Below, piece by piece: positions 7,698-21,786 of a DNA stretch of 64,000 nucleotides. Within the stretch, counting starts at the first letter, position 1. Each line of letters starts with the position of its first letter. Location of the stretch: positions 16,524-80,523 of the forward strand of contig JAFURB010000003.1 of NCBI GenBank assembly GCA_017472065.1, given 5' to 3'. The translations under genes were made by a program, and so were the position numbers. The notes under the pieces were generated by a model. The model was not told where the DNA came from, did no database searches, and saw only the letters and a list, made by a program, of their open reading frames with translations. This DNA is from Alphaproteobacteria bacterium. GTDB taxonomy: Bacteria; Pseudomonadota; Alphaproteobacteria; Rs-D84.

Positions 7698-7730
7698 ATC
7701 AATGGGGTGTTCGCCCCATTGATTATTTGT
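7697..7730. terminator. Bidirectional terminator between the terminase (+) and a lipoprotein gene (-)
   Basis: Hairpin AATCAATGGGG-TGTTCG-CCCCATTGATT flanked by T and A runs. Confidence 0.55.
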
Positions 7731-8289
7731 TGTCGGCAGGTGCCATCAATTTGTTCTTGCATTCAGAATGCCAGTTGGCCGTATAAACAAAGTGACCGCA
7801 ATAACTTTTGGTTATATCTTTTCTATCTGTATAACAATAGTTTGTTATGTCAACAAACCTGCCATCGTTTAGTCTTTCGGTGCGTATGGTTTTATCAAAC
7901 ATAAAATCTGCATTTTTGAACTGTTTTATGCTCCCAACCGTCCACTTATCCATTGTGCCAATATTACGAACTCTAAGATGTTGTTGGTCCATGCACTCAT
8001 CTATAGAATTTCCTGCGGAACATTCTAACAAACTGGTATAGAAAACTTGTCCTTGCTCTTTCTTGTTGACCCAGGGTTGGTCAACAGATTTTTCACTAAC
8101 AAGGACAATGTATCTACCTGGACTTTCTTCTGTGTGTATAATTGTTTTATCAGAATATCCCATACATTCTTGATATTTAGCCAATGGTTTTTCTATGGGG
8201 ATGTTCGGTTTTGTATTGTCGGATATAGGGGATTGAGCCGATCCGCAACCAAATAATATTATTGTTAGAACGGGTGATAATTTTTTCAT
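7723..8289 (-). CDS. Lipoprotein (188 aa)
   Basis: Signal peptide with lipobox MKKLSPVLTIILFGCGS. Confidence 0.6.
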   Translation of the reverse strand: MKKLSPVLTIILFGCGSAQSPISDNTKPNIPIEKPLAKYQECMGYSDKTIIHTEESPGRYIVLVSEKSVDQPWVNKKEQGQVFYTSLLECSAGNSIDECMDQQHLRVRNIGTMDKWTVGSIKQFKNADFMFDKTIRTERLNDGRFVDITNYCYTDRKDITKSYCGHFVYTANWHSECKNKLMAPADNK

Positions 8290-8304
8290 TGTTATTTCCC
8301 CTTT

Positions 8305-8850
8305 TTATCTTTTCCTGTCTTTGTACGGAACGCGCTTATCTCTACCAGACAAACAGTTTAATTTAAAATAACAATTTTTATCTAACAAACATATTGGACT
8401 AAATAATACGGAAAGTGGTGTATAAACAATTGTTGCACCGCCGCCACAAAAAAATGATTGGTAATATTTTCTTTCTTCTTTTGGAAAGTCTGTGTCGTAT
8501 TTTTCTAATGCTTCCTTATACTTTGCCTCTAGTCCCATATCATTATCAATTGTATAATCTGGAACGGTTTTTACAGTTCCCCATGCAGACGTATAACGAT
8601 ATACTCCAACTTGTTTTACACCGTCTACAGAATACACCCCACCATCCACAATATCCGACTTCATGTTGTCTATTGTAAAATGCCCTAAGTTATTCCTGTA
8701 ATACGCAAGAATTTCATCGTCATCAATAACCTGCAATACCTCTATATTGTCGGCAGTATAATCTGGTTGCAATTTTGGAGCATCGGGGTAATCTGGTTCC
8801 ATACACCCAGTTAAAGCTAGTGCTAAAAAAGATAGATTAAACTTCTTCAT
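8305..8850 (-). CDS. Lipoprotein (181 aa)
   Basis: Signal peptide with lipobox MKKFNLSFLALALTGCME. Confidence 0.6.
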   Translation of the reverse strand: MKKFNLSFLALALTGCMEPDYPDAPKLQPDYTADNIEVLQVIDDDEILAYYRNNLGHFTIDNMKSDIVDGGVYSVDGVKQVGVYRYTSAWGTVKTVPDYTIDNDMGLEAKYKEALEKYDTDFPKEERKYYQSFFCGGGATIVYTPLSVLFSPICLLDKNCYFKLNCLSGRDKRVPYKDRKR

Positions 8851-8861
8851 CTTATCCGTCC

Positions 8862-9110
8862 TTATTTTGGTAGCTTATATTTTTTGCTGTTTTTAATATA
8901 AATATCACGCACAATCCATAAAGCACCATTAATGACTTTTTTGCTTTCTTCTGTGGAACCAAGCCATCTCCAACCGCGTTTGGATACGCCTGTTTTTTCG
9001 TTTGGTCTTTTGGCGTCTATACCGTCAATATATGAATAAGTGCTTTCTTGAATCAGAATGTTGTCAGAAATCTCAATAGTAGAGTGTAATACACCTGCGG
9101 ATTTTGCCAT
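8862..9110 (-). CDS. Small hypothetical protein (82 aa)
   Basis: ORF co-oriented and tightly spaced with the upstream lipoprotein genes. No recognisable motif. Confidence 0.35.
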   Translation of the reverse strand: MAKSAGVLHSTIEISDNILIQESTYSYIDGIDAKRPNEKTGVSKRGWRWLGSTEESKKVINGALWIVRDIYIKNSKKYKLPK

Positions 9111-9124
9111 TGGCTTCTCCCTTT

Positions 9125-9350
9125 TTATAAATTAATGACCGCCAACGGAATTGACGGTCGGGGAGTTGGTGTCAGCAAACGAATGCTCCGCAGCCTTCGG
9201 GCAAGCCCTGTTTTATAGCAAACGGCTCCCCGACCAAAGTCGGGGGATTTTAACGACAAATGCCGCGTCTGCGGGCCACCACAGCCCCGAACCCAATTCC
9301 CATTGGATTCAAACAATAACTTAGCATTAATATGTAGACAAATCAAGCGA
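9125..9350. other. GC-rich, hairpin-dense intergenic segment; candidate structured RNA or regulatory element
   Basis: About 58% GC in a ~38% GC context. Several stem-loops, e.g. GGCTCCCCGACC-AAA-GTCGGGGGATTTT and GACCG-N13-CGGTC. The 73-aa ORF the track calls here is basic and low-complexity and looks spurious. Confidence 0.25.
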
Positions 9351-9424
9351 GTAATAGTTTATTCTATGGAATTTTTAATAAATTTATGCTATGTTCTCGA
9401 TGGTAGCCAAGGAATTATGCATAA

Positions 9425-10168
9425 ATGCTATTTAATGTTACGCTATTTTCGGAAGATAATATAACAATCAGTGTCTTTGATGTAGAGGAACTTTCCGATG
9501 AACTAAAGTGCTTTATTGATGACAATATTCATCAAATATGCCTAGGAGAACCGGGTGATTTGTCGTGCGTAAAATTAGATTTAAGAGATAGAATTAATGG
9601 ATGGAATGATGATAACAAAAAAATAGGTTCTATTGCGGAATTTTTTGTGCATTTATACTTAAAACATGAAGGTTATCAGCAAGAATGCTTGTTTTTTAAT
9701 CTCGAAGAAAGGTCATTAAAAAAAGGCTTTGATGGCGTGTATTCTATTGGAGAGCAGCTTTGGTTTGTGGAAAGCAAGTCTGGTTTTATAAGCACGTCTG
9801 GAGTAACACATGCATCTAAGATACGAGAAGCTTATAATGATGTAAAAACAAAAATAACTACTGGTGTCAGTAATAATCCATGGTTAAACGCTTATAATCA
9901 TGCAAGGGTTGTAAAAACTAAAAAAAAGTTACGTGATACTTTAAAACAAATATCTGATGATTTTATTAATCATAGATATCAGACGATTGATGATAAAAAC
10001 ATAATACCGTGCGCAACTATATTCTTAAATGGTATATGGCAGCCACAAGATCATGCAAATATTATAGAGATGGTAAAAAGTATATCAACATTACATGGGA
10101 AAAATATTCATGCCATTTGTATAACACAAAATAGTTATGAAGTCTTTATGCGGTATTTAGAGGATTAA
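9425..10168 (+). CDS. HamA-like protein (putative PD-(D/E)xK nuclease, DUF1837-like); first gene of a Hachiman-like pair
   Basis: 247 aa. ...GFDGVYSIGEQLWFVESKSG contains a D...E-x-K arrangement. Its stop overlaps the start of the downstream helicase (TAAAATGAG). The family assignment rests on size, motif and gene context only. Confidence 0.4.
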   Translation: MLFNVTLFSEDNITISVFDVEELSDELKCFIDDNIHQICLGEPGDLSCVKLDLRDRINGWNDDNKKIGSIAEFFVHLYLKHEGYQQECLFFNLEERSLKKGFDGVYSIGEQLWFVESKSGFISTSGVTHASKIREAYNDVKTKITTGVSNNPWLNAYNHARVVKTKKKLRDTLKQISDDFINHRYQTIDDKNIIPCATIFLNGIWQPQDHANIIEMVKSISTLHGKNIHAICITQNSYEVFMRYLED

Positions 10169-10169
10169 A

Positions 10170-12602
10170 ATGAGTGATTCTAGAAAAATATCGAATCTGA
10201 AAAGTATTAAGCCTGTTCGGGCCGTTCTAAAAAAATTATTTTTATCAGATGATACTATTGACGAAGAAGAAAAGCAATTTTTATTAACCGTAGCGATTGT
10301 ATTGCTTAATCAATATCAAGCGGATACATCACACAAAACAGCTTTTGAATTGGCGTATTTTATTGTTTTAAAATATTCAATTATGTTTCAAGATTGGCAA
10401 CCTTTGTATGATTTTGCACTAAATTATGGCTTTTATCCAATCTCTAATGCGATTATTAATAATAAAGGGATGCTTCCTAATATCACAACAGAAACTTTGA
10501 CCGTGGCAACAGAGTCTCAGTTTAAACATAATGATATTGTAGAAACGAAAGAACAAAATAGATCCAGAAGGGGGGTGTTAGCTACAGATGAAGCGTATGT
10601 AAGCTATGTTGCTCCAACATCTTTCGGAAAAAGTCAGGTTATTATTGAACATATAAGGCAAAATATAGCTTCTTATAACAAGTTCGCTATAGTTGTCCCC
10701 ACAAAATCATTGTTAATGCAAACATATAAAAACATAAAATCAGGTTTTACAAATGTTAGGGTATTAATACATGATGAAATGTATAGTGAAACCGATGAGA
10801 GATTTATTGCTGTATTTACTCAAGAAAGAGCATTGAGATTATTAGAAAAACACCAAAATATACATTTTGATGTTTTGTATATAGATGAAGCACATAAATT
10901 ATTAGAAAATTCAGATAGGAGTGTCTTGCTAACACGATTGGTAAGATTGGCAATGTATCGTAACAATCGCATAAAAATAATATATTTGTCCCCATTAATT
11001 CAAAATATTAATAATATTTCAATATCTGGTCAAAGTATAGAACCGCATAAAATATCAATTAACATAAAGATTCCTACGATTTATGAATATACAAATTCTG
11101 GAGATGTATTAATTTATAATCGATTTTTTGATGAATTTTATGCGAATGCTCATTTAGATGTTGATTATTTGCGGTATATAGAAACAAAATCAACAGATAA
11201 AAATTTTATATATTTGTACACTCCAATAAAAATAGAACGTTTTTCTAAAAGACTGTTTGAGTCTATAACGGAGATTCCTGTAAACGATGATGTTGTGCAG
11301 GTAATAGATAATCTAAATAAATATGTACATGAAGATTTTTATGTGTCTAAGTATTTGCGCAAGGGTATTATTTATATCCATGGAAAAATACCAGATGATA
11401 TAAAAGATTATTTGGAGTTCAAATTCAATACTATTAAAGAAATAAGATACTTGGTTGCAAACAATGTGATATTAGAAGGTGTAAATTTACCGTTTGATTC
11501 TTTGTTTATTATTGATTCACGGGGGCTAGATAAAAATTCATTAATAAATTTGATTGGCCGGGTGAATCGATTAAATATGGTATTTACAAGATCTATTGAC
11601 ACTCTATCAAAATTATTACCAGCAATACATTTTGTTGAAAATAATGAATTTTGTACTTGTAGTATGGCAAATAAAATCAAGCTGTTACAGACATCGGATT
11701 TTGTTGACGAGGTTGAAAACCCGCTATTGGATAGTTTTAATTTAGAAGCCGAAAAGAATGTGGAAAAACGTCATAAATGTGAAGAAACTATTAGAAATGA
11801 AAATTTGGTATTTTTAGAAACAGCAAGCGATGTACAAGTTCTAAAGCAAAATATGTTAAAACTTAGCATGAATGTGATATACAGCATAACAGACGAAGTG
11901 TGTGCCGACATTTTATCAAGAATTAACGGTTATAAAGAACAATATGGGATGCTATCCGATACAAAAAATGTATTTAACTTATTGTATCAGATATTCATAG
12001 AGCGGCTAGAGGAGACCATAAAGGATGAAGAATTTAAACGTTTGATAAATAATGCAAGTAGAGAGTATTATTATAAATTAATAGTAAAGCATAGAAAGAA
12101 GTCGTTAAAAGAGCAGATCTCTTTGACTGCCAGATATTTATATGGTCTTAAAAGAAATAGTGCCAATCCTCGTCTGTTCATAGGTTCTTCATACGGAGAG
12201 TGTGATGCTTTTGGTAATCCTTTTACAAATAAACATTTTTATATAGATGTTGGGGCAAAAAATTATTCTGAAATTGTAAATTTGTCTATAGTGAAGATAA
12301 AATTAGAGGAGGATTTTGTGAGTTTTAAACTGAATAAGTTCTTTCAGTTAATGCTGGATTATGAGCTTATATCAAGAGAGCTTTATAATGATTTAGTATA
12401 TGGCACTAATAACCCTTTGATTCTTATGTTGAGTAAACAAGGGCTAAGTCTGAATATAATAAACAAACTCATCAAAGATGAGCAATTGGGTAATTTATCA
12501 ATCGATAATTTTGGGAATTTATCATATAATGAACAATTTGCAGCATACAAAGAAACCTCTGATGACTTTTTTAAATTTGAATTAGATAAATTCTTACCAT
12601 AA
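10170..12602 (+). CDS. SF2 DExH-type helicase (810 aa), HamB-like; second gene of a Hachiman-like pair
   Basis: Walker A VAPTSFGKSQV, motif II LYIDEAHKL, motif VI LIGRVNRLN. The helicase core sits in the N-terminal half with a long C-terminal region, as in HamB. Confidence 0.6.
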   Translation: MSDSRKISNLKSIKPVRAVLKKLFLSDDTIDEEEKQFLLTVAIVLLNQYQADTSHKTAFELAYFIVLKYSIMFQDWQPLYDFALNYGFYPISNAIINNKGMLPNITTETLTVATESQFKHNDIVETKEQNRSRRGVLATDEAYVSYVAPTSFGKSQVIIEHIRQNIASYNKFAIVVPTKSLLMQTYKNIKSGFTNVRVLIHDEMYSETDERFIAVFTQERALRLLEKHQNIHFDVLYIDEAHKLLENSDRSVLLTRLVRLAMYRNNRIKIIYLSPLIQNINNISISGQSIEPHKISINIKIPTIYEYTNSGDVLIYNRFFDEFYANAHLDVDYLRYIETKSTDKNFIYLYTPIKIERFSKRLFESITEIPVNDDVVQVIDNLNKYVHEDFYVSKYLRKGIIYIHGKIPDDIKDYLEFKFNTIKEIRYLVANNVILEGVNLPFDSLFIIDSRGLDKNSLINLIGRVNRLNMVFTRSIDTLSKLLPAIHFVENNEFCTCSMANKIKLLQTSDFVDEVENPLLDSFNLEAEKNVEKRHKCEETIRNENLVFLETASDVQVLKQNMLKLSMNVIYSITDEVCADILSRINGYKEQYGMLSDTKNVFNLLYQIFIERLEETIKDEEFKRLINNASREYYYKLIVKHRKKSLKEQISLTARYLYGLKRNSANPRLFIGSSYGECDAFGNPFTNKHFYIDVGAKNYSEIVNLSIVKIKLEEDFVSFKLNKFFQLMLDYELISRELYNDLVYGTNNPLILMLSKQGLSLNIINKLIKDEQLGNLSIDNFGNLSYNEQFAAYKETSDDFFKFELDKFLP

Positions 12603-12610
12603 TAAAATAA

Positions 12611-12641
12611 AAATTCCCTGTTATTTGTTTAGGGAATTTTT
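12611..12641 (+). terminator. Terminator after the helicase gene
   Basis: Hairpin TTCCCTG-loop-AGGGAA followed by a T run. Confidence 0.45.
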
Positions 12642-12946
12642 TACGGGAAGTGGATAATATGCGACTTGGGCGTGGTGCAAAATTGGTTTTTGGGACAAAA
12701 ATGGCAAAATTTCCCTGTAAATTCCCTGATGTTGTATGCAAAAGACCGTAGAAAAGTCTTACTCCGCCAGGAAATTAAAATCAAAACCGCCCAAATTGGG
12801 CGTTTTGTTTTTGTGTTGACAGTTAAGAAAAAGCATATTAGCATTAGTAGCGTGACTTGTGATGACTAATGTTATCGCAAACATTATCCGCCAATGTGGA
12901 TAGATATTAAATAGGGTTCATCGCCCAAAACTCAAAGGAGTGAAAG

Positions 12947-13933
12947 ATGAAAAAAATCTACGACGATCCTAATATCGTTATATATTCAAAAACCGAAACA
13001 GATCCCGTTTTTCAAGAAATAAAAACATCTGATGGCAAATGTTTTAATACATCAAAACCGACTATTTATGATTTGGGAATTGGCCTTGGGGCTGCGGAAT
13101 TGATGTTTATAAACCCAAATACGGGCGAATGGCTTCATGGTGGTGATGGTGAAATTATACCAATAAGCACAAAAGCGAACAAAGTAGTGTTTAATGAAAA
13201 GGTATGGTCGTTAAGCGGGTTGGCAACACATTTGCAGAGCAAATATCCAGAATCTAAATGCCCAGAAGCTCAGGTATATGACTTTTTTGCATATGGAAGC
13301 AAAGCCGATACATTGGCAAAGAAAGAACGAGAATTTTTGGAAAAATACTATAAAATTTCCATACCAAAGGGGCGTCTTGAATTATTGGCAGAACAAAGGT
13401 ATTTGGCGGAACAAAAAAAATACGACGCAAATGATTTACCCATATTTGACGTACATAAAGATGTGTATAAAATCGTAGACTGGCAAAACGATGATTTGAC
13501 ATCTGTAAAGGGATTTAAATGGTCTATTGATGGCACAAAATTTGCTGGCGAAACACGAAAATTTAAAGAGATGTTTAAGCAAATCGTTTCTTGTTTGTAT
13601 AATCATATGCCACGGGTTTTGGATATTGAAATGATTCGCATATTGTCGGAATCTGATGCGTTATTTAATCCCACAATTAAAAAAATAATAGGTGTTTCTG
13701 GTGAAGTGCCTGTGGTAAATGGCAATATTGATGGCCTAGAGTTTTCTAATATTCCAAATAATCACAGACATATTGATACATATACGGACAGTATGTGGAT
13801 AGAAGTAGTTCCGGAGTGGCTTTACATTTGGGGGTTGTATTCCAATAATGATTTAAAAAAGAAGTTACAAATATTATTAAAATTATATGGAATAGAACCA
13901 AATATGTTAAAAATATCAATCCAAGAACACTAA
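12947..13933 (+). CDS. Hypothetical protein (328 aa); candidate island cargo
   Basis: Clean ORF with RBS aaggag, ending at a hairpin terminator. No recognisable domain. Confidence 0.5.
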   Translation: MKKIYDDPNIVIYSKTETDPVFQEIKTSDGKCFNTSKPTIYDLGIGLGAAELMFINPNTGEWLHGGDGEIIPISTKANKVVFNEKVWSLSGLATHLQSKYPESKCPEAQVYDFFAYGSKADTLAKKEREFLEKYYKISIPKGRLELLAEQRYLAEQKKYDANDLPIFDVHKDVYKIVDWQNDDLTSVKGFKWSIDGTKFAGETRKFKEMFKQIVSCLYNHMPRVLDIEMIRILSESDALFNPTIKKIIGVSGEVPVVNGNIDGLEFSNIPNNHRHIDTYTDSMWIEVVPEWLYIWGLYSNNDLKKKLQILLKLYGIEPNMLKISIQEH

Positions 13934-13939
13934 AATAAT

Positions 13940-13970
13940 AACACCGCTAAATGGCGGTGTTATTATTTTC
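13940..13970 (+). terminator. Rho-independent terminator
   Basis: AACACCGC-TAAAT-GGCGGTGTT followed by ATTATTTT. Confidence 0.65.
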
Positions 13971-13989
13971 AATTTTAACATAGTGTGTG

Positions 13990-14329
13990 CTACGTCTTGC
14001 GCCACGCCGTCGCAAACGCTTTCAATATCAGATGGTTGTTTCCTGTAATGCTTAGCGTGCCATTGTGTCCGCCCCTAAATCTGGTGTTGGCATATCGGCG
14101 CAGCACAACCGGTCGCACAATCGTCACATTATCGCTATTTACCATATATTCCATTGGACTGTTATTATGATTGATATGGTATGTAGATAAAAATGAATTG
14201 TACAACCGTGGGTTGATGTTGATGCAGAATATCAGTTGTTCTTGCGAATAAACTGCCTGTTCAATCATAACGCGAACCAATTCTCGTCTTTGCAGGTATG
14301 ACAGATCTTCCCACTCAATCCGTTTTAAT
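13990..14329 (-). pseudogene. Truncated internal fragment of a serine recombinase gene (copy 2 of the duplicated segment, 14002-14329)
   Basis: The 96-aa ORF and the sequence upstream of it are roughly 85-90% identical to residues ~335-440 of the recombinase at 2375-3967. The catalytic N-domain and the C-terminal end are both missing. Confidence 0.7.
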
Positions 14330-14357
14330 ATGCTGGTTGGCTTTTTGCAAGGTTAAG

Positions 14358-14465
14358 GAAAAAATAAAGCAGACACCGAAGTGTCTGCTTGAAATGGTGT
14401 CCACATTCACAAGAATGCTTCCTTATTAACGACTAGACATCTAATTCCAACTTGATTTTATTCGT
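14358..14465 (-). ncRNA. tracrRNA (trans-activating CRISPR RNA)
   Basis: Plus-strand 14433-14450 CTAGACATCTAATTCCAA is the exact reverse complement of the repeat core TTGGAATTAGATGTCTAG. The minus-strand RNA reads ...AAUCAAGUUGGAAUUAGAUGUCUAGUCGUUAAUAAGGAAGCAUUC...GCAGACACUUCGGUGUCUGCUUUAUUUUUU: anti-repeat, then UCGUUAAUAAGG (nexus-like; compare SpCas9 tracr AAGUUAAAAUAAGG), then an intrinsic terminator (hairpin 14369-14388 plus U run). The 5' end is not defined. Confidence 0.7.
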
Positions 14466-14573
14466 TAAGTCACCACTGGCATGATTATATCACTTGTATA
14501 AATAATGTCAAATAGTTTGATTTTATGCCCAATATTGTATACCATAATTACAAATTATTACAAAGGTGCGGAC

Positions 14574-17500
14574 ATGAAGTACAAACTTGGTTTAGATTTA
14601 GGCAGCACATCACTTGGTTGGGCTGTGGTTGAATTGGGGGATAATGATGAAATTTTGCGTTTGGTTGATATGGGTGTCCGCATCTTTCCAGATGGTCAGG
14701 AGCATTCGCCAACTGGCGTAAAGAGTTTGGCCAGTGTTCGTTCGGAAAAGAAACAGCAAAGACTTCAGACAGACCGTCGCAAGATGCGAAGAAAACAACT
14801 GTTTAGCAAATTGGTTGAAACAGGATTGTTACCGACAGATAAAGAAATGCTAAAAGAATTATTAAATCCTGGGATTGGAAATGGGAATCGAACCAATCCA
14901 TATGAATTGCGAAACAAGGCTGTTGAAGAACAAGTATCGTTGTATGAGTTAGGGCGTATTTTATGGCATTTATCCAAACATCGTGGATTTTCGGGTAAAC
15001 GAGATCAGGATATTGATATACAAAGTACAAAACAACAGGTCGAGCCATCAGAAACCGATAACGCCAAAGAAGCAAAAAATGTTAATAAAAGAATTGAACG
15101 GTTGCGCCATGAAATCGCAAGTGCAGGGGTTAAGACTTTGGGGCAATACTTACATAAGAAATATGAAGAAAACAAGTCCGTTCGTTTTACTGCGCTTGAG
15201 GCCAGTACAGGTCAATCATCTGGATTCCCCAGCAGGAAACTTTATCAAGAAGAATTTGAAACTATATGGAAAAAACAAGAAAAGTATTATCCAAATATAT
15301 TAAACGAGCAGTTAAAAAAAGAGTTACGTGATGATATAATGTATTTTCAGCGACCATTGGCACAGCAACCAGTCGGAAAGTGTAAATTTGAGAAGTCTGA
15401 AGATAGAATCGCAAAGTGTTATCCATTATATCAGGAATATCGAATTTTGCAGGATATTAATGATTTAGAATTGGATGGCACACCGTTACCTGATGAGTAT
15501 CGTATGGCAATCTATCATATGCTTATGAATCCTAATGCTGTTGATGAAATGATTGACGGAAATGGGCGATTGTCGTTTGATAAAATTCGCGAGCACTTGA
15601 ATATTATCGGCAGATTTAATTTGGAACATATTGGTAATCGTGGATTGTTGTGTAACAAGACAAACAAAGTTATGTCTTCTGATGCAGTGTTTGGTGACAA
15701 ATGGTTTGACTTTGATGCAGAAACCCAGGAAAAAATAATTTACGAGATTACGGCTTATCACAAGACAAAAAATCAAAGTAAAGAAGCTCTTCAAGAGATG
15801 GGGATAAAAGATGATGCATTGATTGAACGCTTGCTAAAAAAACACTCTTTGTTGACCAAAGGCTATTCTGAATTGTCTGCGATGGCAATAAAAAGGGTGT
15901 TGCCAGCCATGAAAAATGGAAAAAAATGGCACGAAGCGGCAGCGGAGAAATACGGAAAACACACGGTTGTCAGACCGTATTATACATTTGGGTATAATCC
16001 ACCCAAGCAATTACCAGACTACAGAAAATTATTTCACGAATCTCTTACCAATGGAAAAATTGGCAATGTGACAGTGCATATTGGCTTAAATCAATTGCGT
16101 GCAGTTATTAATGCCTTGATAGAAAGATACGGTCATCCATATAGCATAGCCATTGAAATGGCGCGTGAATTAAAAATGGGTAAAAAGGCATTGGATATAT
16201 ACAGGCGAAAACAATGGCAAAACCAAAAGTTTAATATAGATGCCCGCAGAAAAATTAACGATGTCTTGGGACGTTCGTATGATAGTGCTGTGTCTTCTGG
16301 TGAAATGGAAAGGTATAAAGTATGGTATAACCTAAATCCGAAAAACGAAAATCAAAGGTATGACTGGTATGATTCTTCTGATACCCCATTGATAAGTTTA
16401 CGTGATGCCTTGTCATCGGAATATGAAATTGAACACATTATTCCACGGTCAATTGGTGGTGATGATACATGGGCAAATAAAATTTTGACCAGAAAGGATC
16501 ATAACTTAGCCAAAGGTAACATGTTGCCATATCAATATTTGTCAGAAAGCCAGCTGGCACGTGCAAAGCGCTGGGCCAAAGATTCAGATGATGTCAGAAA
16601 GACAGAATCTCAGCGCAAGGAAGAAGAAAAAGCAATTAGAGCAGGTAAACCGGTTCCTTTTGTGTTTAATTCGTTTGCGTGGCGTTTTGAATCTAATGCT
16701 GGTTCGCACATAAACAAAGATTTCAAATCACGCGATTTGAATGATACCCGCTATTTGTGCAAGGTGGCACGTGATTATTTATCATATATTTGTGTTGGTT
16801 ATTCTCATGCAGAAAAACAGCGAACCCCTTATGTTATTGCCAGTAATGGTACGATGACCAGTTTATTCAAAGATATATGGGAATTAAATGACTGTTTGCC
16901 TTATGATTATGATAAGTGGTCAATTCAGGATTGGCAACGTGATATTATGAAACAAAGAATCTTTGAACGTCTGTTCAAAGATGATCCGGAATTTGGTGTG
17001 TATGATAAAGAAAAAACAGCAAGCAAGGCAAAACAAGATGCCGAAAAAAAGCAAATAGAAGAGGAATTAAAAAATACGCCCGATTCAGAGTTTCTGAAAA
17101 TATCTAGCAGAAAGAAAGACCGAACCAACCATTATCATCATGCTCTGGATGCATTTGTGATTGCATGTTTGGACAACAAAATGGTGCAAGAAATCAATGC
17201 GCGCGCAAACGAATTTGCGGACATGCGCGACAAGTGGAACAGGCAAAATGATGCAGACAAAGAAAAAAGCTTGCAACAGATTCGCAAAGAGCAAATTCAG
17301 AAAGAATACACTAAGCCATTTGGTGGGTTTGATAAAAATCTTTTGGCAAAAACTTTGGCTGATTTGGTGGTGGCAGAAAAACAGCAACCGGATAAATTGC
17401 AGCAGTATTTGTCAGGAAAAAGCAAAGGTGTTGCTTCTTTTACACAAGATACAGCATTTGGGATTGCTGATGAAGAATATTTTGATGATGGCTATATAAT

Positions 17501-18134
17501 GTTACGTGTGAACGGCAAAACGTCCAAGGCCGATTTGAAAACATTGGTGCCCGTGTTTAACAAACAGCATCCCGAATATAAAAGATTAAAACAGCAATAT
17601 ATTGATGCGTATGCCCAGTGGCGCACGGACAAAAAAGATCGCCAGAAAATAAGAAACTTGATGGCTTGTATATCACGTGACAAGGTATTCAAGTGGTTGG
17701 CCAGTGGTGGTAATTATGCGACTGAAATTTATACAAATGGCAAAAGCGCTGTTTGGTCATCGGATATTATGTCGAATTGGTGGGCTTTGCAACGCGGCGG
17801 TCGTTTCTGGTGGCGCGATGATTATCCAAATGGAAAATGCATAATGAAATTACGCATCGGCAGCAAGATTCGTGTAATGCATGAAAACGCAACACTTTTG
17901 AAAGAACAAAGAAATATTGGGAAATGGGTGATAAGTCAGATAGAACACGGTCGTGATTTGTTGTTTCGGGTCAAAAAGTTAACAGGTACAAACATTTACT
18001 TGACGCCGGTGCATGTCGCACTTGAAAAACCCGATGATACAAAAACATGGCAGGCCTCGGCACGTTCACTACAAAAAGTATCTGCACAGATTGTTGAAAT
18101 ATCTGTTCTGGGCGATGTTGTTGAACTAAAATAA
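14574..18134 (+). CDS. cas9: Cas9 endonuclease (1186 aa), type II-C-like
   Basis: RuvC-I MKYKLGLDLGSTSLGWAV; Arg-rich bridge helix RRKMRRKQLF; HNH YEIEHIIPRSIGGDDTWANKILTRKDHNLAKGN; RuvC-III NHYHHALDAFVIA. The track ORF starts 23 codons earlier; the ATG at 14574 follows RBS AAAGG and matches the conserved Cas9 N-terminus. There is no csn2 or cas4 in the locus. Confidence 0.9.
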   Translation: MKYKLGLDLGSTSLGWAVVELGDNDEILRLVDMGVRIFPDGQEHSPTGVKSLASVRSEKKQQRLQTDRRKMRRKQLFSKLVETGLLPTDKEMLKELLNPGIGNGNRTNPYELRNKAVEEQVSLYELGRILWHLSKHRGFSGKRDQDIDIQSTKQQVEPSETDNAKEAKNVNKRIERLRHEIASAGVKTLGQYLHKKYEENKSVRFTALEASTGQSSGFPSRKLYQEEFETIWKKQEKYYPNILNEQLKKELRDDIMYFQRPLAQQPVGKCKFEKSEDRIAKCYPLYQEYRILQDINDLELDGTPLPDEYRMAIYHMLMNPNAVDEMIDGNGRLSFDKIREHLNIIGRFNLEHIGNRGLLCNKTNKVMSSDAVFGDKWFDFDAETQEKIIYEITAYHKTKNQSKEALQEMGIKDDALIERLLKKHSLLTKGYSELSAMAIKRVLPAMKNGKKWHEAAAEKYGKHTVVRPYYTFGYNPPKQLPDYRKLFHESLTNGKIGNVTVHIGLNQLRAVINALIERYGHPYSIAIEMARELKMGKKALDIYRRKQWQNQKFNIDARRKINDVLGRSYDSAVSSGEMERYKVWYNLNPKNENQRYDWYDSSDTPLISLRDALSSEYEIEHIIPRSIGGDDTWANKILTRKDHNLAKGNMLPYQYLSESQLARAKRWAKDSDDVRKTESQRKEEEKAIRAGKPVPFVFNSFAWRFESNAGSHINKDFKSRDLNDTRYLCKVARDYLSYICVGYSHAEKQRTPYVIASNGTMTSLFKDIWELNDCLPYDYDKWSIQDWQRDIMKQRIFERLFKDDPEFGVYDKEKTASKAKQDAEKKQIEEELKNTPDSEFLKISSRKKDRTNHYHHALDAFVIACLDNKMVQEINARANEFADMRDKWNRQNDADKEKSLQQIRKEQIQKEYTKPFGGFDKNLLAKTLADLVVAEKQQPDKLQQYLSGKSKGVASFTQDTAFGIADEEYFDDGYIMLRVNGKTSKADLKTLVPVFNKQHPEYKRLKQQYIDAYAQWRTDKKDRQKIRNLMACISRDKVFKWLASGGNYATEIYTNGKSAVWSSDIMSNWWALQRGGRFWWRDDYPNGKCIMKLRIGSKIRVMHENATLLKEQRNIGKWVISQIEHGRDLLFRVKKLTGTNIYLTPVHVALEKPDDTKTWQASARSLQKVSAQIVEISVLGDVVELK

Positions 18135-18464
18135 TTGTAATTGATTGGGGCGTTGTGCCAGTGCGGTTGGCATCTCGGCCTTGTCCAGGTGGATTATGTC
18201 CCCAAATTGGGTGTCTGTAAAGAACAGAATATTCACGTCCCCCGTACACGGGTTGTTGCGTTTTATTGCCCGGATATATTTTTGTGAATTTTCGCGTGTA
18301 CCTGTAAATCGCATATATACAGAGTATTGCGCCATCGAAAATCCCATGTCTTGCAGGAAATTACGAAACTGGCTTGCTGCGCGCCGTTCCTGTTTCGTTT
18401 CGGTCGGTAAATCGAACATAACCATCATCCACATGTACTTTAATCCATCAGTTCTGTATGACAT
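18126..18464 (-). CDS. cas2: Cas2
   Basis: MSYRTDGLKYMWMMVMFDLPTETKQERRAASQFRNFLQDMGF matches the type II Cas2 N-terminus (compare MSYRYMRMILMFDMPTDT). The 3' end overlaps the cas9 stop region by 9 bp, convergently. Confidence 0.85.
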   Translation of the reverse strand: MSYRTDGLKYMWMMVMFDLPTETKQERRAASQFRNFLQDMGFSMAQYSVYMRFTGTRENSQKYIRAIKRNNPCTGDVNILFFTDTQFGDIIHLDKAEMPTALAQRPNQLQLF

Positions 18465-19383
18465 TTTCAAAATCCAATTTATTTTTCTTTTCACTCAGGG
18501 AATTTACAAAATTCCAAACATCGCGTTGCATAATATTTATCAATGGTGAAAATCCAGCGCGTGTTTTAATCTCGGATTCTAAAATCATCGCCATTTGACG
18601 TTTGTCATCTGGTGTTAATTCGCGCGTTTGGTCGTCTGAACCTTGAAAAATCTGATATACAATTGCATCTACGATTGGGCGATATGGTTCCATTAAATCA
18701 TCAACCAGGCACATTGGATTTAGTTGGTTGTGGTGCTGTATTCCATATGACGGGTTTAGTCCTGCTGCAACCACCAAACGTGCCATTGCGCCCCTAATAA
18801 TTGCATATCCATAGTTTAAGAAAGCATTAATTCCACCCATCGTATGTATGCGTAAGAATCCGCCACCGAACAGGGCGGGAAAATACATGCGGGCGGCGAT
18901 TCCTTCTATATTACTGGTGTCACCAGATTGTACAACTGTTGGCAGATTTTTGATTTTGTTATCCAATCCGAAATAGTCCAATACGCGTGATTGGTTTCGA
19001 ATTTTTTCCTGAACAATCGTTTTCCATAATTGTTTTTGTAGTGGCTTGGATGAATTGACCTGTGTTTGCTGTACGGTCATTTGTCGTGTTTGTCCGATCA
19101 ATGGCGTCATTATTCCCACCGGATTATAGTTGTCGCCAATGATGATTAAAGGGATTCCATTGTCGCATAATTGGGTCATAAGATTTTGTGTAAATAAAAT
19201 GGCACGGCCTGTTGCCATTACGGCACAAATAGAATCCATTGGAACCTCGGCCAATGTGATGCCGCGTTCTTTGATGCACAAGAAACCACGGCGTGCCGTC
19301 AATTCGCGATTGTTATTAGAAATTTCAATAATGTTTGTTTGCATATCTGTTATATAAGCACAAAATATTGATTTGTCAACCAT
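18448..19383 (-). CDS. cas1: Cas1 integrase
   Basis: Type II Cas1 hallmarks: ...SGDTSNIEGIAARMYFPALFG..., ...NYGYAIIRGAMARLVVAAGLNPSYGIQHH..., ...DLMEPYRPIVD... The start may instead be the internal Met MQTNII at about 19344. Confidence 0.9.
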   Translation of the reverse strand: MVDKSIFCAYITDMQTNIIEISNNNRELTARRGFLCIKERGITLAEVPMDSICAVMATGRAILFTQNLMTQLCDNGIPLIIIGDNYNPVGIMTPLIGQTRQMTVQQTQVNSSKPLQKQLWKTIVQEKIRNQSRVLDYFGLDNKIKNLPTVVQSGDTSNIEGIAARMYFPALFGGGFLRIHTMGGINAFLNYGYAIIRGAMARLVVAAGLNPSYGIQHHNQLNPMCLVDDLMEPYRPIVDAIVYQIFQGSDDQTRELTPDDKRQMAMILESEIKTRAGFSPLINIMQRDVWNFVNSLSEKKNKLDFENVIQN

Positions 19384-19472
19384 AAGTAAGTTTCTTATAA
19401 AGAAAAAATAGCAAAACGAATCGATTTTTTGAATAAATTTGATTGTTTTTTGATTTTAGATATAACATAAAA

Positions 19473-19497
19473 GCCCCAGGAATCTGGGGACTTTTGT
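19473..19497. terminator. Hairpin/terminator between the CRISPR array and the cas1 start
   Basis: CCCCAG-GAAT-CTGGGG, with a T-rich tract on the plus strand (CTTTTGTG) and also on the minus strand (CTTTTATG). Confidence 0.45.
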
Positions 19498-19504
19498 GCT
19501 ATGG

Positions 19505-21786
19505 ATTATATCAGATTGGAATTAGATGTCTAGCCGCAACGTAGTTAAAACAAAGGAGTAAAAAATGAAAATTATATCAGATTGGAATTAGATGTCTAGC
19601 CGCAACTCGGCACGTGTGATGTATTCGTCCAATTCGATTATATCAGATTGGAATTAGATGTCTAGCCGCAACGTACAAGGCGTTTATATGGCTTAAAAAT
19701 GGATTATATCAGATTGGAATTAGATGTCTAGCCGCAACGTATATATGCACATTCGGCGGTGCTACTGGATTATATCAGATTGGAATTAGATGTCTAGCCG
19801 CAACGAATGCTTTCCCCGCCGTCGGGTTTCCATGATTATATCAGATTGGAATTAGATGTCTAGCCGCAACTGGAAGATTGGGAGCGCCACGGTTATAAAT
19901 ATTATATCAGATTGGAATTAGATGTCTAGCCGCAACAGTTGGAAATCCAACGTGAAGAAATGGAAGTATTATATCAGATTGGAATTAGATGTCTAGCCGC
20001 AACTTCAGTGGCACAGCCGCGCGCACGCCATGAATTATATCAGATTGGAATTAGATGTCTAGCCGCAACCTGCTTTTTAGTGTGTTGTAATCCGCGGAAA
20101 TTATATCAGATTGGAATTAGATGTCTAGCCGCAACTTTTTGAATAGATTGTAATAACAGATATTTATTATATCAGATTGGAATTAGATGTCTAGCCGCAA
20201 CAGTACCACCAAAGAGAAATCGTCCGGAAACATTATATCAGATTGGAATTAGATGTCTAGCCGCAACTTTGCAACAGTATGTCACAAGGCGCGGTTTATT
20301 ATATCAGATTGGAATTAGATGTCTAGCCGCAACTAGGGCGCGCCAGTTATTCAAATGAACCTTATTATATCAGATTGGAATTAGATGTCTAGCCGCAACG
20401 CCACGATACAGACCCCCGCGCCGGTGTGAATTATATCAGATTGGAATTAGATGTCTAGCCGCAACCGACACACACATTATTATATATAACACTGGATTAT
20501 ATCAGATTGGAATTAGATGTCTAGCCGCAACATCGCACGGCTTGCCTTTTCACTAAACACAATTATATCAGATTGGAATTAGATGTCTAGCCGCAACGGG
20601 TGACATTGTTGCACACCGTAAGCAATTATTATATCAGATTGGAATTAGATGTCTAGCCGCAACCAATTTACCGGCAATTTCAAATGCAATTTGATTATAT
20701 CAGATTGGAATTAGATGTCTAGCCGCAACTCCTTATGCTTGTGGCGGTGTTGTTGGTTTATTATATCAGATTGGAATTAGATGTCTAGCCGCAACATATA
20801 ATTTGTCCCCGTTATGATTTTCTTTATTATATCAGATTGGAATTAGATGTCTAGCCGCAACGGATTATACCAAAAGTCATGTCCATGTTCAATTATATCA
20901 GATTGGAATTAGATGTCTAGCCGCAACATTCTGGTGAAAAGTTCATTGTTTATACCCATTATATCAGATTGGAATTAGATGTCTAGCCGCAACGTTTCCC
21001 GCCACCAGATGAATAAAAATTTTATTATATCAGATTGGAATTAGATGTCTAGCCGCAACGACCTCAATCCCCACGTCCGTGGTATAACCATTATATCAGA
21101 TTGGAATTAGATGTCTAGCCGCAACATTTGCGTACGAACACGATTTGAACGGCAAATTATATCAGATTGGAATTAGATGTCTAGCCGCAACTGATAAATT
21201 GCATTCCAAACGGCGGTAAATATTATATCAGATTGGAATTAGATGTCTAGCCGCAACTAGCAATCTGGGGAGATAAAAACATTATTGATTATATCAGATT
21301 GGAATTAGATGTCTAGCCGCAACGATATAAAAACTTAGGAGCACTTGATTTCAATTATATCAGATTGGAATTAGATGTCTAGCCGCAACATACTGATATA
21401 TTAAAGTCGATTCTTAACTATTATATCAGATTGGAATTAGATGTCTAGCCGCAACACTGAGTTAGGTCTTATTACTTTAGATGAAAATTATATCAGATTG
21501 GAATTAGATGTCTAGCCGCAACAGGAACCGACTACTGTTATTCACTTGACATATTATATCAGATTGGAATTAGATGTCTAGCCGCAACATATCTTCAAAT
21601 GCCATCGCATCCTTAACCATTATATCAGATTGGAATTAGATGTCTAGCCGCAACGTTACAAATGATGATTGATGATGCTCATTAATTATATCAGATTGGA
21701 ATTAGATGTCTAGCCGCAACCTCTGGCATTATCTGCACCATCTACACACAATTATATCAGATTGGAATTAGATGTCTAGCCGCAAC
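19505..21786 (-). CRISPR. CRISPR array: 35 direct repeats of 36 bp and 34 spacers of 29-31 bp; crRNA inferred to be a minus-strand transcript
   Basis: Plus-strand repeat ATTATATCAGATTGGAATTAGATGTCTAGCCGCAAC, period ~66 bp, first repeat 19505-19540, last 21751-21786. In crRNA orientation the repeat is GTTGCGGCTAGACATCTAATTCCAATCTGATATAAT. Strand is inferred from the tracrRNA anti-repeat orientation. Confidence 0.95.
21751..21759 (-). promoter_or_regulatory. Representative intra-repeat extended -10 element (TGATATAAT) at the 3' end of each repeat in crRNA orientation
   Basis: On the minus strand each repeat ends ...CTGATATAAT, which is TGnTATAAT. This would start transcription a few nt into the adjacent spacer, as described for Neisseria and Campylobacter type II-C arrays. 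Confidence 0.5.

What the first reader, a model, noticed from the sequence alone, without database searches (positions are those of the whole stretch)
14358..19497. Non-canonical cas gene orientation: cas9 is convergent with cas2-cas1, and the tracrRNA is divergent from cas9
cas9 is on the plus strand while cas2-cas1 are on the minus strand, reading from the array towards cas9. The cas9 and cas2 stop regions overlap by 9 bp (18126-18134) with no terminator between them. Typical II-C loci are co-directional (cas9-cas1-cas2-array). A bidirectional hairpin/terminator (19473-19497) sits between the array and the cas1 start. It may insulate cas1-cas2 from repeat-promoter read-through. The arrangement suggests an inversion of the cas9-tracrRNA module, or modular assembly of the locus, and implies convergent transcription over the cas9/cas2 junction.
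Basis: seen in the sequence. Interest (0 to 1): 0.55.

Follow-up and report, generated by a model that had tools for sequence, protein, structure and literature searches.

The report
Type II-C CRISPR locus, flipped cas1-cas2
This is a complete Cas9 (type II-C) CRISPR immune locus in which the two spacer-acquisition genes, cas1 and cas2, are flipped to face cas9; the layout is old and shared by a whole group of gut alphaproteobacteria, so it is a modest variant and not a recent rearrangement.

Summary
cas9 (14574-18134, +) converges on cas2 (18126-18464, -) and cas1 (18448-19344, -). Their stop codons overlap by 9 bp and no terminator lies between them. The tracrRNA is divergent upstream of cas9. 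A hairpin terminator separates cas1 from a 35-repeat array that is read on the minus strand from promoters inside each repeat.

- **Not a recent rearrangement.** About 13 distinct lineages of gut alphaproteobacterial loci have the same layout. Their Cas1 proteins form one clade with 100% bootstrap support.
- **Only cas1-cas2 is flipped.** The array, the terminator, a CGATTCG leader motif and the divergent tracrRNA keep the same orientation relative to cas9 as in co-directional relatives. The cas9-tracrRNA module is therefore not inverted.
- **The hairpin predates the flip.** The flipped genes have their own conserved promoter, probably producing a leaderless mRNA.
- **The cas9 body has been exchanged.** Two Cas9 types that are about 30% identical occur on this one scaffold. 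The window's cas1 is 90-91% identical in DNA to loci whose cas9 body is unalignable. The visible breakpoints are at cas9 codon 41 and at the cas9/cas2 overlap.

In situ cas9 exchange in type II-C was already described in 2025. Overall this is a clade-typical variant of a known system, of modest interest.

The parts
14484..14511 (-). tracrRNA promoter: TTGACA, 16-nt spacer, extended -10 TGATATAAT
   Evidence: 12 of 12 consensus positions plus the TG. It sits about 7 nt upstream of the inferred tracrRNA 5' end.
14360..14477 (-). tracrRNA gene, about 118 nt. It contains the anti-repeat (14430-14456), the invariant GTTAATAAG, a middle hairpin and a rho-independent terminator (14390-14367 plus a T run).
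   Evidence: The anti-repeat is complementary to the minus-strand repeat transcript. It aligns with 11 related loci, and 6 terminator pairs show compensatory changes. The fold has z -2.7. The ends are inferred, not mapped.
14574..18134 (+). cas9, 1186 aa, the divergent 'type A' of this family. The first 41 codons (14574-14696) are shared with type-B loci.
   Evidence: TIGR01865 E 2.6e-146. RuvC and HNH catalytic residues are intact. Its closest solved relative is Neisseria meningitidis Cas9, at only 127-133 bits. Amino acids 1-41 are identical to the type-B Cas9 of L045.
18126..18134 (.). 9-bp antisense overlap of the cas9 stop (TAA) and the cas2 stop (TAG). It is also the right-hand limit of homology with type-B loci.
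   Evidence: Sequence reading. Relatives overlap by 9 bp in 8 of the 11 loci tabulated, and also in L093. The overlap is 15 bp in L001 and L041 and 4 bp in L004. blastn homology with type-B loci starts at 18127.
18126..18464 (-). cas2, 112 aa
   Evidence: TIGR01573 and PF09827. It is 85-95% identical in amino acids to Cas2 of the convergent relatives, except L009 at 78%.
18448..19344 (-). cas1, 298 aa. It overlaps the cas2 start by 17 nt.
   Evidence: TIGR03639, type II Cas1. The 298-aa length matches most relatives. It is 94% identical in amino acids and 90-91% in nucleotides to L027/L070, whose Cas9 is about 27-31% identical.
19352..19379 (-). Dedicated cas1-cas2 promoter: TTGACA (19379-19374), 16-nt spacer, TTATAT (19357-19352). 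It ends 7 nt before the cas1 ATG, so the mRNA is probably leaderless.
   Evidence: TTGACAAA and the -10 region are conserved in 11 of 12 convergent loci, and L009 has its own copy after an insertion. The start site is inferred.
19417..19423 (-). Invariant CGATTCG motif in the array-proximal leader
   Evidence: Invariant in all 12 convergent loci. It is also present between cas2 and the array in co-directional relatives L010, L017, L020 and L022. Its function is unknown; it may be a leader element for spacer integration.
19461..19503 (.). Bidirectional intrinsic terminator, core CCCCAG-GAAT-CTGGGG at 19474-19489, directly after the last repeat in the direction of crRNA transcription
   Evidence: Terminator-like on both strands. 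z -5.7 and -3.9. A hairpin with a different stem sequence is present in all 12 convergent loci and in co-directional relatives.
19505..21786 (-). CRISPR array: 35 identical 36-nt repeats (crRNA sense GTTGCGGCTAGACATCTAATTCCAATCTGATATAAT) and 34 spacers of 30-31 nt. Each repeat carries TAGACA, a 16-nt spacer and TGATATAAT.
   Evidence: The repeat promoters match 11 of 12 consensus positions plus the TG on the minus strand.

Best explanation
The region is a complete and apparently functional type II-C CRISPR-Cas9 locus of a ruminant-gut alphaproteobacterium. It differs from the canonical layout in one respect: the cas1-cas2 pair has been inverted in place.

**The layouts.**
- Canonical layout in this family: tracrRNA (leftward) | cas9-cas1-cas2 (rightward, overlapping ORFs) | bidirectional terminator and leader | array (leftward, read from repeat-embedded promoters).
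- Layout here: only the segment from the cas1 start to the cas2 stop is flipped. The convergent junction has therefore moved. It was at the cas2/array boundary, where a terminator sits. It is now at the cas9/cas2 boundary, where there is none and the stops overlap by 9 bp.

**Age and spread.** The flip happened once, in the ancestor of one Cas1 clade, and has been stably inherited.

**How it most likely works (inferred steps).**
- The tracrRNA is made from a consensus sigma-70 promoter.
- crRNAs start inside each spacer from the promoter in the upstream repeat, as in Neisseria.
- Array transcription ends at the hairpin.
- cas1-cas2 are transcribed from their own promoter as a leaderless bicistron that runs into the 3' end of cas9.
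- cas9 transcripts probably run antisense through cas2-cas1 to the same hairpin.
- Adaptation genes are thereby uncoupled from the cas9 promoter and may be damped by cas9 read-through.

**Exchange of cas9.** On this conserved scaffold, the cas9 body has been exchanged repeatedly by recombination between two Cas9 types. Type A is 1186-1230 aa, as here. Type B is about 1094-1114 aa and is more Neisseria-like. The tracrRNA, the repeat, the leader and cas1-cas2 stayed in place.
For: **Identity and orientation of the genes:**

**The layout is typical of the lineage.**
- It is convergent in L001/L002/L008, L003/L007, L004/L005, L009 and L093 (type-A Cas9, 49-99% identical).
- It is convergent in L021, L025, L027, L041, L045, L048 and L070 (type B), and in the metagenome loci L086-L092.
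- The 12 convergent Cas1 proteins are monophyletic in 100% of 200 bootstrap replicates, with no co-directional locus inside the clade.

**Only cas1-cas2 is flipped.**
- Repeat polarity relative to cas9 is the same in convergent and co-directional relatives.
- So are the position and strand of the anti-repeat.
- The hairpin and the CGATTCG motif lie next to the array in both layouts.
- In co-directional L006, cas1 overlaps the cas9 stop by 11 bp, which fits a flip of almost exactly the two ORFs.

**Promoters and terminators:**

**Exchange of cas9.**
- DNA identity of the window to L027/L070 is 90-91% for cas1, 86-87% for the intergenic region, 85% for cas2 and 80% for the tracrRNA. For the cas9 body it is 52-54%, which equals the shuffled baseline.
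- The first 123 nt of cas9 are 87-88% identical to L041/L045, and amino acids 1-41 are identical to those of L045. Identity then drops to baseline.
- Type-A and type-B Cas9 are 29-34% identical, and each clade has 100% bootstrap support.
- Window + L027 + L070 group together in 100% of Cas1 replicates and 0% of Cas9 replicates.
- Variants of the tracrRNA middle hairpin cut across the Cas9 types.
- The 36-nt repeat is identical in the window and L003 (type A) and in L027, L048 and L070 (type B).
- Catalytic residues are intact in both types.

**Same chromosomal site.** L045 nt 1-1797 matches window 7517-9313 at 98.9%, yet L045 carries a type-B locus.
Against: - No RNA data exist. Transcript ends, the leaderless start, terminator efficiency and any antisense effect are all inferred from sequence.
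- The trees are neighbour-joining trees on MAFFT alignments, so deep branching of Cas9 is poorly resolved. The A/B incongruence rests on shallow, strongly supported nodes and on raw identities.
- L009's Cas1 is only 57% identical to the window's, about as distant as that of co-directional L006 (56%). Its place in the convergent clade depends on the tree.
- The direction of exchange cannot be decided. Either cas9 moved onto a resident scaffold, or the scaffold was homogenised around resident cas9 genes.
- All relatives are metagenome-assembled genomes or metagenome contigs.
- No protospacers were found, so activity and PAMs are unknown.
Confidence: 0.8

Rival explanations
1. A recent, genome-specific inversion of the cas9-tracrRNA module.
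For: cas9 and the tracrRNA lie together at one end of the locus, on strands opposite to cas1-cas2 and to each other.
Against: The same layout occurs in about 13 distinct lineages, with Cas1 identity as low as 57%. The array and tracrRNA have the same orientation relative to cas9 as in co-directional relatives, so cas9-tracrRNA is not the flipped part.
Confidence: 0.03
2. A related cas1-cas2 cassette was captured or replaced in reverse orientation. On this reading the adaptation module was exchanged, not inverted in place.
For: Module exchange is frequent in this family. L006 groups with L009 by Cas9 (99% bootstrap) but with L017 by Cas1 (91%). In situ shuffling of type II-C modules has been published (PMC12669027).
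Against: The convergent Cas1 clade is sister to the co-directional Cas1 proteins of the same gut-alphaproteobacterial family. The leader, terminator and repeat are continuous with those relatives. The flipped block corresponds almost exactly to the two ORFs. With present data the outcome cannot be told apart from an inversion.
Confidence: 0.13
3. cas1-cas2 sits on a phase-variable invertible segment (an inverton) that switches adaptation on and off.
For: Invertible segments are common in gut bacteria (general knowledge). The flipped block is compact, and a promoter lies at one end.
Against: No inverted repeats flank the block: no pair has one arm near 18100-18135 and the other near 19340-19420. 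All loci of the clade share one orientation, including two near-identical ones, the window and L093. No recombinase gene is adjacent.
Confidence: 0.03
4. An assembly artefact joined contigs in the wrong orientation.
For: The window probably comes from a metagenome-assembled genome. Its flank is 98.9% identical to a goat-colon MAG.
Against: The cas9/cas2 stop overlap and the cas1-leader junction recur in independent assemblies from many samples and hosts. The ORFs are intact, and the junction sequences are conserved but not identical.
Confidence: 0.01

Closest known systems
Neisseria meningitidis type II-C CRISPR-Cas9 (Nme1Cas9/Nme2Cas9 locus)
   Same: - The gene set is minimal (cas9, cas1, cas2), and no Csn2 or Cas4 family matched the two adjacent upstream ORFs.
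- The repeat is 36 nt, begins GTTG and ends in an extended -10 box, so each repeat carries a promoter. The Neisseria mechanism itself is from my own knowledge of Zhang et al. 2013.
- The array is transcribed opposite to cas9 (PMC3737331).
- The anti-repeat is upstream of cas9.
- NmeCas9 is the best solved-structure match for both Cas9 types.
   Different: - cas1-cas2 are inverted and have their own promoter, so there is no cas9-cas1-cas2 operon.
- The cas9 and cas2 stops overlap antisense.
- The window's Cas9 is only distantly related to NmeCas9 (127-133 bits, against 215-235 bits for the type-B Cas9).
Co-directional type II-C loci of gut Alphaproteobacteria (L006/L010, L016, L017, L020, L022, L011/L012)
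   Same: - They belong to the same family. Repeats are similar (for example ATTATAACATATTGGAATTAAATGTCTAGTAGCAAC).
- The tracrRNA is divergent upstream of cas9.
- The hairpin and CGATTCG motif lie next to the array.
- Their Cas1 clade is sister to the convergent one.
   Different: cas1-cas2 follow cas9 on the same strand, with the cas9 stop overlapping the cas1 start. There is no separate cas1 promoter segment, and the cas2-array spacer is 71-137 nt against about 160 nt here.
In situ cas9 shuffling in type II-C of Flavobacteriales (Makarova et al. 2025, PMC12669027, Extended Data Fig. 9)
   Same: [quoted passage not shown] That is exactly the pattern seen here.
   Different: - The phylum is different, and the exchange occurs here on a convergent scaffold.
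- The limits of homology can be placed at cas9 codon 41 (after GVRIFPDG) and at the cas9/cas2 stop overlap.
- The tracrRNA follows cas1, not cas9.
- I did not see that paper's supplementary loci, so I cannot say whether its examples also keep the tracrRNA.
Rearranged type II-A loci of Mycoplasma and other Mollicutes
   Same: They are published cases of inverted genes within type II loci (PMC3737331; PMC6882279).
   Different: They are a different subtype and carry a fourth gene. The inversion reported there concerns cas9 and moves the tracrRNA. No conserved clade-wide cas1-cas2 flip is described.

Membership tests
Type II CRISPR-Cas (Cas9 systems) | A Cas9 effector with a split RuvC domain and an HNH nuclease domain | tested here: met
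   TIGR01865 E 2.6e-146, plus PF18541 RuvC_III and PF13395 HNH_4. D8, E528, H621, N644, H856 and D859 are conserved.
Type II CRISPR-Cas (Cas9 systems) | A tracrRNA with an anti-repeat complementary to the CRISPR repeat | tested here: met
   The anti-repeat is at 14430-14456 on the minus strand, with its own promoter and terminator. It is conserved in 12 loci, with compensatory changes in the terminator stem. Expression was not tested.
Subtype II-C | A minimal gene set of cas9, cas1 and cas2, with no csn2 or cas4 | tested here: met
   The type II-specific Cas1 model TIGR03639 matches. The neighbouring ORFs 12947-13933 and 13990-14280 have no Pfam or NCBIfam hit. The next genes are a Hachiman-like pair upstream and a flavoprotein downstream.
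Subtype II-C | cas9, cas1 and cas2 form one co-directional operon (Chylinski et al. 2013) | tested here: not met
   cas2 and cas1 are on the strand opposite to cas9, with 9 bp of overlapping stops. This is a feature of gene order, not of gene content or phylogeny.
Neisseria-like II-C crRNA biogenesis | Each repeat contains a promoter, so crRNAs start within spacers, and the array is read opposite to cas9 | tested here: inconclusive
   The sequence signal is strong: TAGACA, a 16-nt spacer and TGATATAAT in every repeat on the minus strand. Polarity agrees with the tracrRNA. There is no RNA evidence.
In situ effector (cas9) shuffling, sensu Makarova et al. 2025 | Closely related cas1 paired with distantly related cas9 at the same locus | tested here: met
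   Cas1 is 94% identical in amino acids (90-91% in nucleotides) to L027/L070, whose Cas9 is about 27-31% identical. The trees are incongruent, at 100% against 0% bootstrap.
Invertons (phase-variable invertible segments) | Flanking inverted repeats, and both orientations present in a population | tested here: not met
   There are no flanking inverted repeats. All clade members share one orientation. Read-level heterogeneity could not be tested.

The most novel reading that the evidence does not exclude
Two Cas9 proteins that are only about 30% identical would be natural drop-in alternatives that work with the same crRNA repeat, nearly the same tracrRNA and the same Cas1-Cas2. They would be exchanged as a cassette between codon 41 and the cas2 overlap, within one species and at one chromosomal site, for example to escape anti-CRISPR proteins. 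In addition, the convergent layout would let cas9 read-through act as a built-in antisense brake on cas1-cas2. Guide sharing at this level of divergence would lie well outside the usual working rule of more than 50% identity (PMC9433092).
Probability: 0.3. Interest if true: 0.6.

Novelty: new variant of a known kind. Interest (0 to 1): 0.35.

Why it matters
- **For annotation.** Locus callers that expect a cas9-cas1-cas2 operon, or that infer array direction from the direction of the cas genes, will mis-orient these loci. Here cas1-cas2 point the same way as crRNA transcription, but cas9 does not.
- **For biology.** The flip uncouples the adaptation genes from the cas9 promoter. It also creates a convergent gene pair with no terminator, which offers a natural test of whether antisense read-through tunes spacer acquisition.
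- **For tool development.** The family offers pairs of very different Cas9 proteins that appear to share one guide-RNA scaffold. If confirmed, a single sgRNA design could give two PAM specificities, and the pair could show which guide features Cas9 really reads.
- **For evolution.** It is a clean case, resolved to its breakpoints, of the in situ effector shuffling recently proposed as a general trend.

Tried and rejected
1. **Protospacer search, to show activity, PAM and crRNA polarity.**
   - blastn of the whole array against 50,697 phage records gave no match.
   - Three 24-nt spacer cores scanned against viral contigs gave none.
   - All 604 spacers from all fetched loci were compared with all fetched DNA. 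Only duplicate contigs matched.
   - No spacers are shared between related arrays, so acquisition polarity rests only on degenerate repeats at the cas1-distal end.
2. **Rfam.** There is no tracrRNA or other family hit in the locus at gathering threshold. A weak ohsC_RNA hit (E 0.005) at 13932-14026 falls below threshold and overlaps a terminator hairpin, so I treat it as chance.
3. **Inverted repeats flanking cas1-cas2.** None were found, so I rejected the inverton reading.
4. **A hidden terminator or structure at the cas9/cas2 junction.** None was found.
5. **A second Cas9 locus in the window, as a possible gene-conversion partner.** None was found.
6. **First attempt at segment identities.** Free end gaps inflated the values. 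I redid the calculation with penalised ends and a shuffled baseline.
7. **First tree run.** It timed out. In one search, rerooting blanked the support values along the backbone. I replaced them with direct bipartition counts.
8. **The conserved 204-nt stretch at 12611-12812.** I tested it as a structured RNA and found no significant fold.


Full report
**1. What is at the coordinates**

ORF listing and profile searches confirm the three genes.
- Cas9 is on the plus strand at 14574-18134 (TIGR01865, E 2.6e-146; RuvC_III and HNH domains).
- Cas2 is on the minus strand at 18126-18464.
- A type II Cas1 (TIGR03639) is on the minus strand at 18448-19344.

The longer ORF starts at 14505 (cas9) and 19383 (cas1) are not conserved. 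All relatives begin Cas9 at MKYKLGLDLG, and most have a 298-aa Cas1.

The cas9 stop (TAA, 18132-18134) and the cas2 stop (TAG, complement of 18126-18128) overlap by 9 bp. Nothing terminator-like lies at this junction. Neither strand folds better there than shuffled sequence.

The array runs from 19505 to 21786. It has 35 identical 36-nt repeats and 34 spacers of 30-31 nt.

**2. Polarity of the RNAs**

- Read on the minus strand, the repeat is GTTGCGGCTAGACATCTAATTCCAATCTGATATAAT.
- Every repeat contains TAGACA, a 16-nt spacer and TGATATAAT. This matches 11 of 12 sigma-70 consensus positions and adds the extended -10 TG. It is the arrangement known from Neisseria type II-C, where crRNAs start inside the spacers (my knowledge of Zhang et al. 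2013).
- The anti-repeat (14430-14456) is complementary to this minus-strand transcript.
- It lies in a unit of about 118 nt with a perfect promoter (14511-14484) and a strong terminator (14390-14367).
- In 12 loci, 6 pairs of that terminator stem show compensatory changes.

The tracrRNA and the array are therefore both read leftward, and cas9 rightward.

**3. Is the layout peculiar to this genome? No**

I collected 93 related loci through the Cas9 protein and 7 more through Cas1. Among 76 non-redundant loci with all three genes, 64 are co-directional and 12 are convergent.

The convergent loci include:
- every Cas9 relative of 49% identity or more: L093 (99%), L001 (75%), L003 (69%, a Candidatus Enterousia MAG), L004 (53%) and L009 (49%);
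- seven loci whose Cas9 is only 26-33% identical: L021, L025, L027, L041, L045, L048 and L070;
- all seven metagenome loci found with Cas1, which also carry this second Cas9 type.

The stop-stop overlap is kept throughout. It is 9 bp in most loci, 15 bp in two and 4 bp in one.

**4. Which piece is inverted?**

The following features are the same in convergent and co-directional relatives:
- The repeat reads ATTATA...GCAAC on the cas9 strand.
- The anti-repeat sits 100-220 nt upstream of cas9 on the opposite strand.
- Going from the last repeat in the crRNA direction, there is a GC-rich hairpin flanked by an A-tract and a T-tract. In most of these loci a CGATTCG motif follows.

Only cas1-cas2 differ. 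In co-directional L006 the cas1 start overlaps the cas9 stop by 11 bp. In convergent loci it is the cas2 stop that overlaps the cas9 stop. The flipped block is therefore almost exactly the two ORFs.

Convergent loci also have about 45 nt more between the CGATTCG motif and cas1. This extra sequence carries a conserved promoter, TTGACA-16-TTATAT, which ends 7 nt before the ATG. The cas1-cas2 mRNA is thus probably leaderless.

The hairpin is ancestral. In the canonical layout it sits where the cas operon and the array converge. Here it separates the array from cas1, and it is the first terminator that a cas9 transcript would meet.

No inverted repeats flank the block, so a phase-variable inverton is unlikely.

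**5. One origin**

In bootstrap analysis the 12 convergent Cas1 proteins form a clade in 100% of 200 replicates. The sister group consists of co-directional loci of the same gut-alphaproteobacterial family. A single ancient flip is the simplest reading. Capture of a related cassette in reverse orientation cannot be excluded.

**6. Exchange of the cas9 body**

The Cas9 tree splits the convergent loci into two clades, each with 100% bootstrap support.
- Type A groups with co-directional L006/L010 and L011/L012.
- Type B groups with co-directional L016, L017, L020, L022 and L026.

The two types are 29-34% identical. In the Cas1 tree, types A and B are interleaved. Window + L027 + L070 group together in 100% of Cas1 replicates and in 0% of Cas9 replicates.

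DNA identity of the window to other loci, by segment:

| Segment | L027/L070 (type B) | L041/L045 (type B) | L001/L003 (type A) |
|---|---|---|---|
| tracrRNA | 80% | 73-74% | 69-71% |
| cas9 nt 1-123 | 76% | 87-88% | 76-80% |
| cas9 body | 52-54% | 52-55% | 68-71% |
| cas2 | 85% | 83% | 81-82% |
| cas1 | 90-91% | 74-75% | 73% |
| cas1-array intergenic region | 86-87% | 76% | 63-76% |

- The shuffled baseline for these segments is 52-56%.
- Amino acids 1-41 of the window's Cas9 are identical to those of L045. Identity collapses immediately after the invariant GVRIFPDG.
- blastn homology with type-B loci resumes at 18127, the cas2 stop.
- The 36-nt repeat is identical in loci of both types.
- Variants of the tracrRNA middle hairpin cut across the Cas9 types. 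The window (type A) shares its variant with L027/L070 (type B). L001 and L003 (type A) share theirs with L041, L045 and L048 (type B).
- Both Cas9 types keep all catalytic residues.
- Both have N. meningitidis Cas9 as their best solved relative. Type B is much closer to it (215-235 bits against 127-133 bits).

L045 shares 98.9% identity with window 7517-9313. Near-identical strains therefore carry a type-A or a type-B locus at the same chromosomal site.

This pattern was described for type II-C of Flavobacteriales as "cas9 exchanged in situ" by Makarova et al. 2025 (PMC12669027). It is a further example with resolved breakpoints, not a new kind of event.

**7. Mechanism proposed**

*Shown from sequence and comparison:* gene identities, polarities, promoters and terminators as sequence signals, the clade-wide layout, the extent of the flip, and the mosaic structure.

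*Inferred:*
- crRNAs start from the repeat promoters and end at the hairpin.
- cas1-cas2 are expressed from their own leaderless promoter, independently of cas9, and their transcript runs into the cas9 3' end.
- cas9 transcripts run antisense across cas2-cas1 for about 1.3 kb, to the hairpin at 19474-19489. This could damp adaptation when cas9 is highly expressed.
- Degenerate repeats lie at the cas1-distal end in L021, L027, L048 and L070. New spacers therefore probably enter at the cas1-proximal end, next to the CGATTCG leader. This matches the discrepancy between repeat decay and transcription direction that Chylinski et al. reported for Neisseria and Campylobacter.

**8. Comparison with what is known, and verdict**

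By gene content, by Cas1 and Cas9 families and by its RNA features, the locus belongs to subtype II-C. It fails only the operon gene-order feature.

Inversions inside type II loci have been noted in Mollicutes. My text searches found no description of a conserved clade with flipped cas1-cas2. These searches cover only open-access text.

I rate the locus a new variant of a known kind, of modest interest.

Noticed in passing
window 9425-12602 (+): A two-gene Hachiman-like defence pair lies immediately upstream of the CRISPR locus. It consists of a 247-aa ORF with a weak match to a PADLOC CARF/PD-(D/E)xK-type model and an 810-aa HamB-type DEAD-box helicase (PADLOC HamB, E 3.5e-47).
   Followed up: partly
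window 9314-14358, compared with L045 1798-7720 and L093 1-5500: The stretch between a conserved flank and the CRISPR locus is a variable defence island. The flank (window 7517-9313) is 98.9% identical to L045. At this site L045 carries an M78 peptidase (capP/RmrA-like), a Beta protein (PD-Lambda-2_C-like), DUF488 and a DuOB protein. L093, whose Cas9 is 99% identical to the window's, carries WYL and FtsK-like genes.
   Followed up: partly
window 12611-12812: A 204-nt non-coding stretch is 94% identical to L045 6083-6286, although the genes on both sides differ. It begins with the hamB terminator hairpin and ends with a second terminator. It has no Rfam hit and no significant fold. It could be a small RNA, a small ORF or a recombination anchor of the island.
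   Followed up: partly
window 19417-19423, and the equivalent position in L001-L070: An invariant CGATTCG motif lies about 85-100 nt from the last repeat. It is present in both convergent and co-directional relatives. It is a candidate leader element for spacer integration or regulation. Its function is unknown.
   Followed up: partly
window Cas9 residues about 595-600 (DNA about 16356-16373): Type-A Cas9 proteins have RYDWYD where type-B and most other type II-C Cas9 proteins have the C-x-Y-T/C motif upstream of the HNH histidine. This is a lineage-specific change in the HNH region.
   Followed up: no
L045 and L070 (both from MAG RGIG2010, goat colon): One MAG contains two contigs, each with a convergent type-B II-C locus, whose Cas9 proteins are 67% identical. 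Either the genome has two loci or the bin mixes strains. This matters when reading exchange as gene conversion between co-resident loci.
   Followed up: no
L011 6682-7300: This co-directional relative has a second CRISPR array upstream of cas9. Its repeat is different (ATTAAAGCAGCCCCGAATTTAGAAGGGGACTAAAAC), which suggests another CRISPR type next door.
   Followed up: no
window 13932-14026 (-): A weak Rfam match to the ohsC_RNA antitoxin family (34.8 bits against a gathering score of 50; E 0.005) overlaps the terminator hairpin after ORF 12947-13933. It is probably chance.
   Followed up: no
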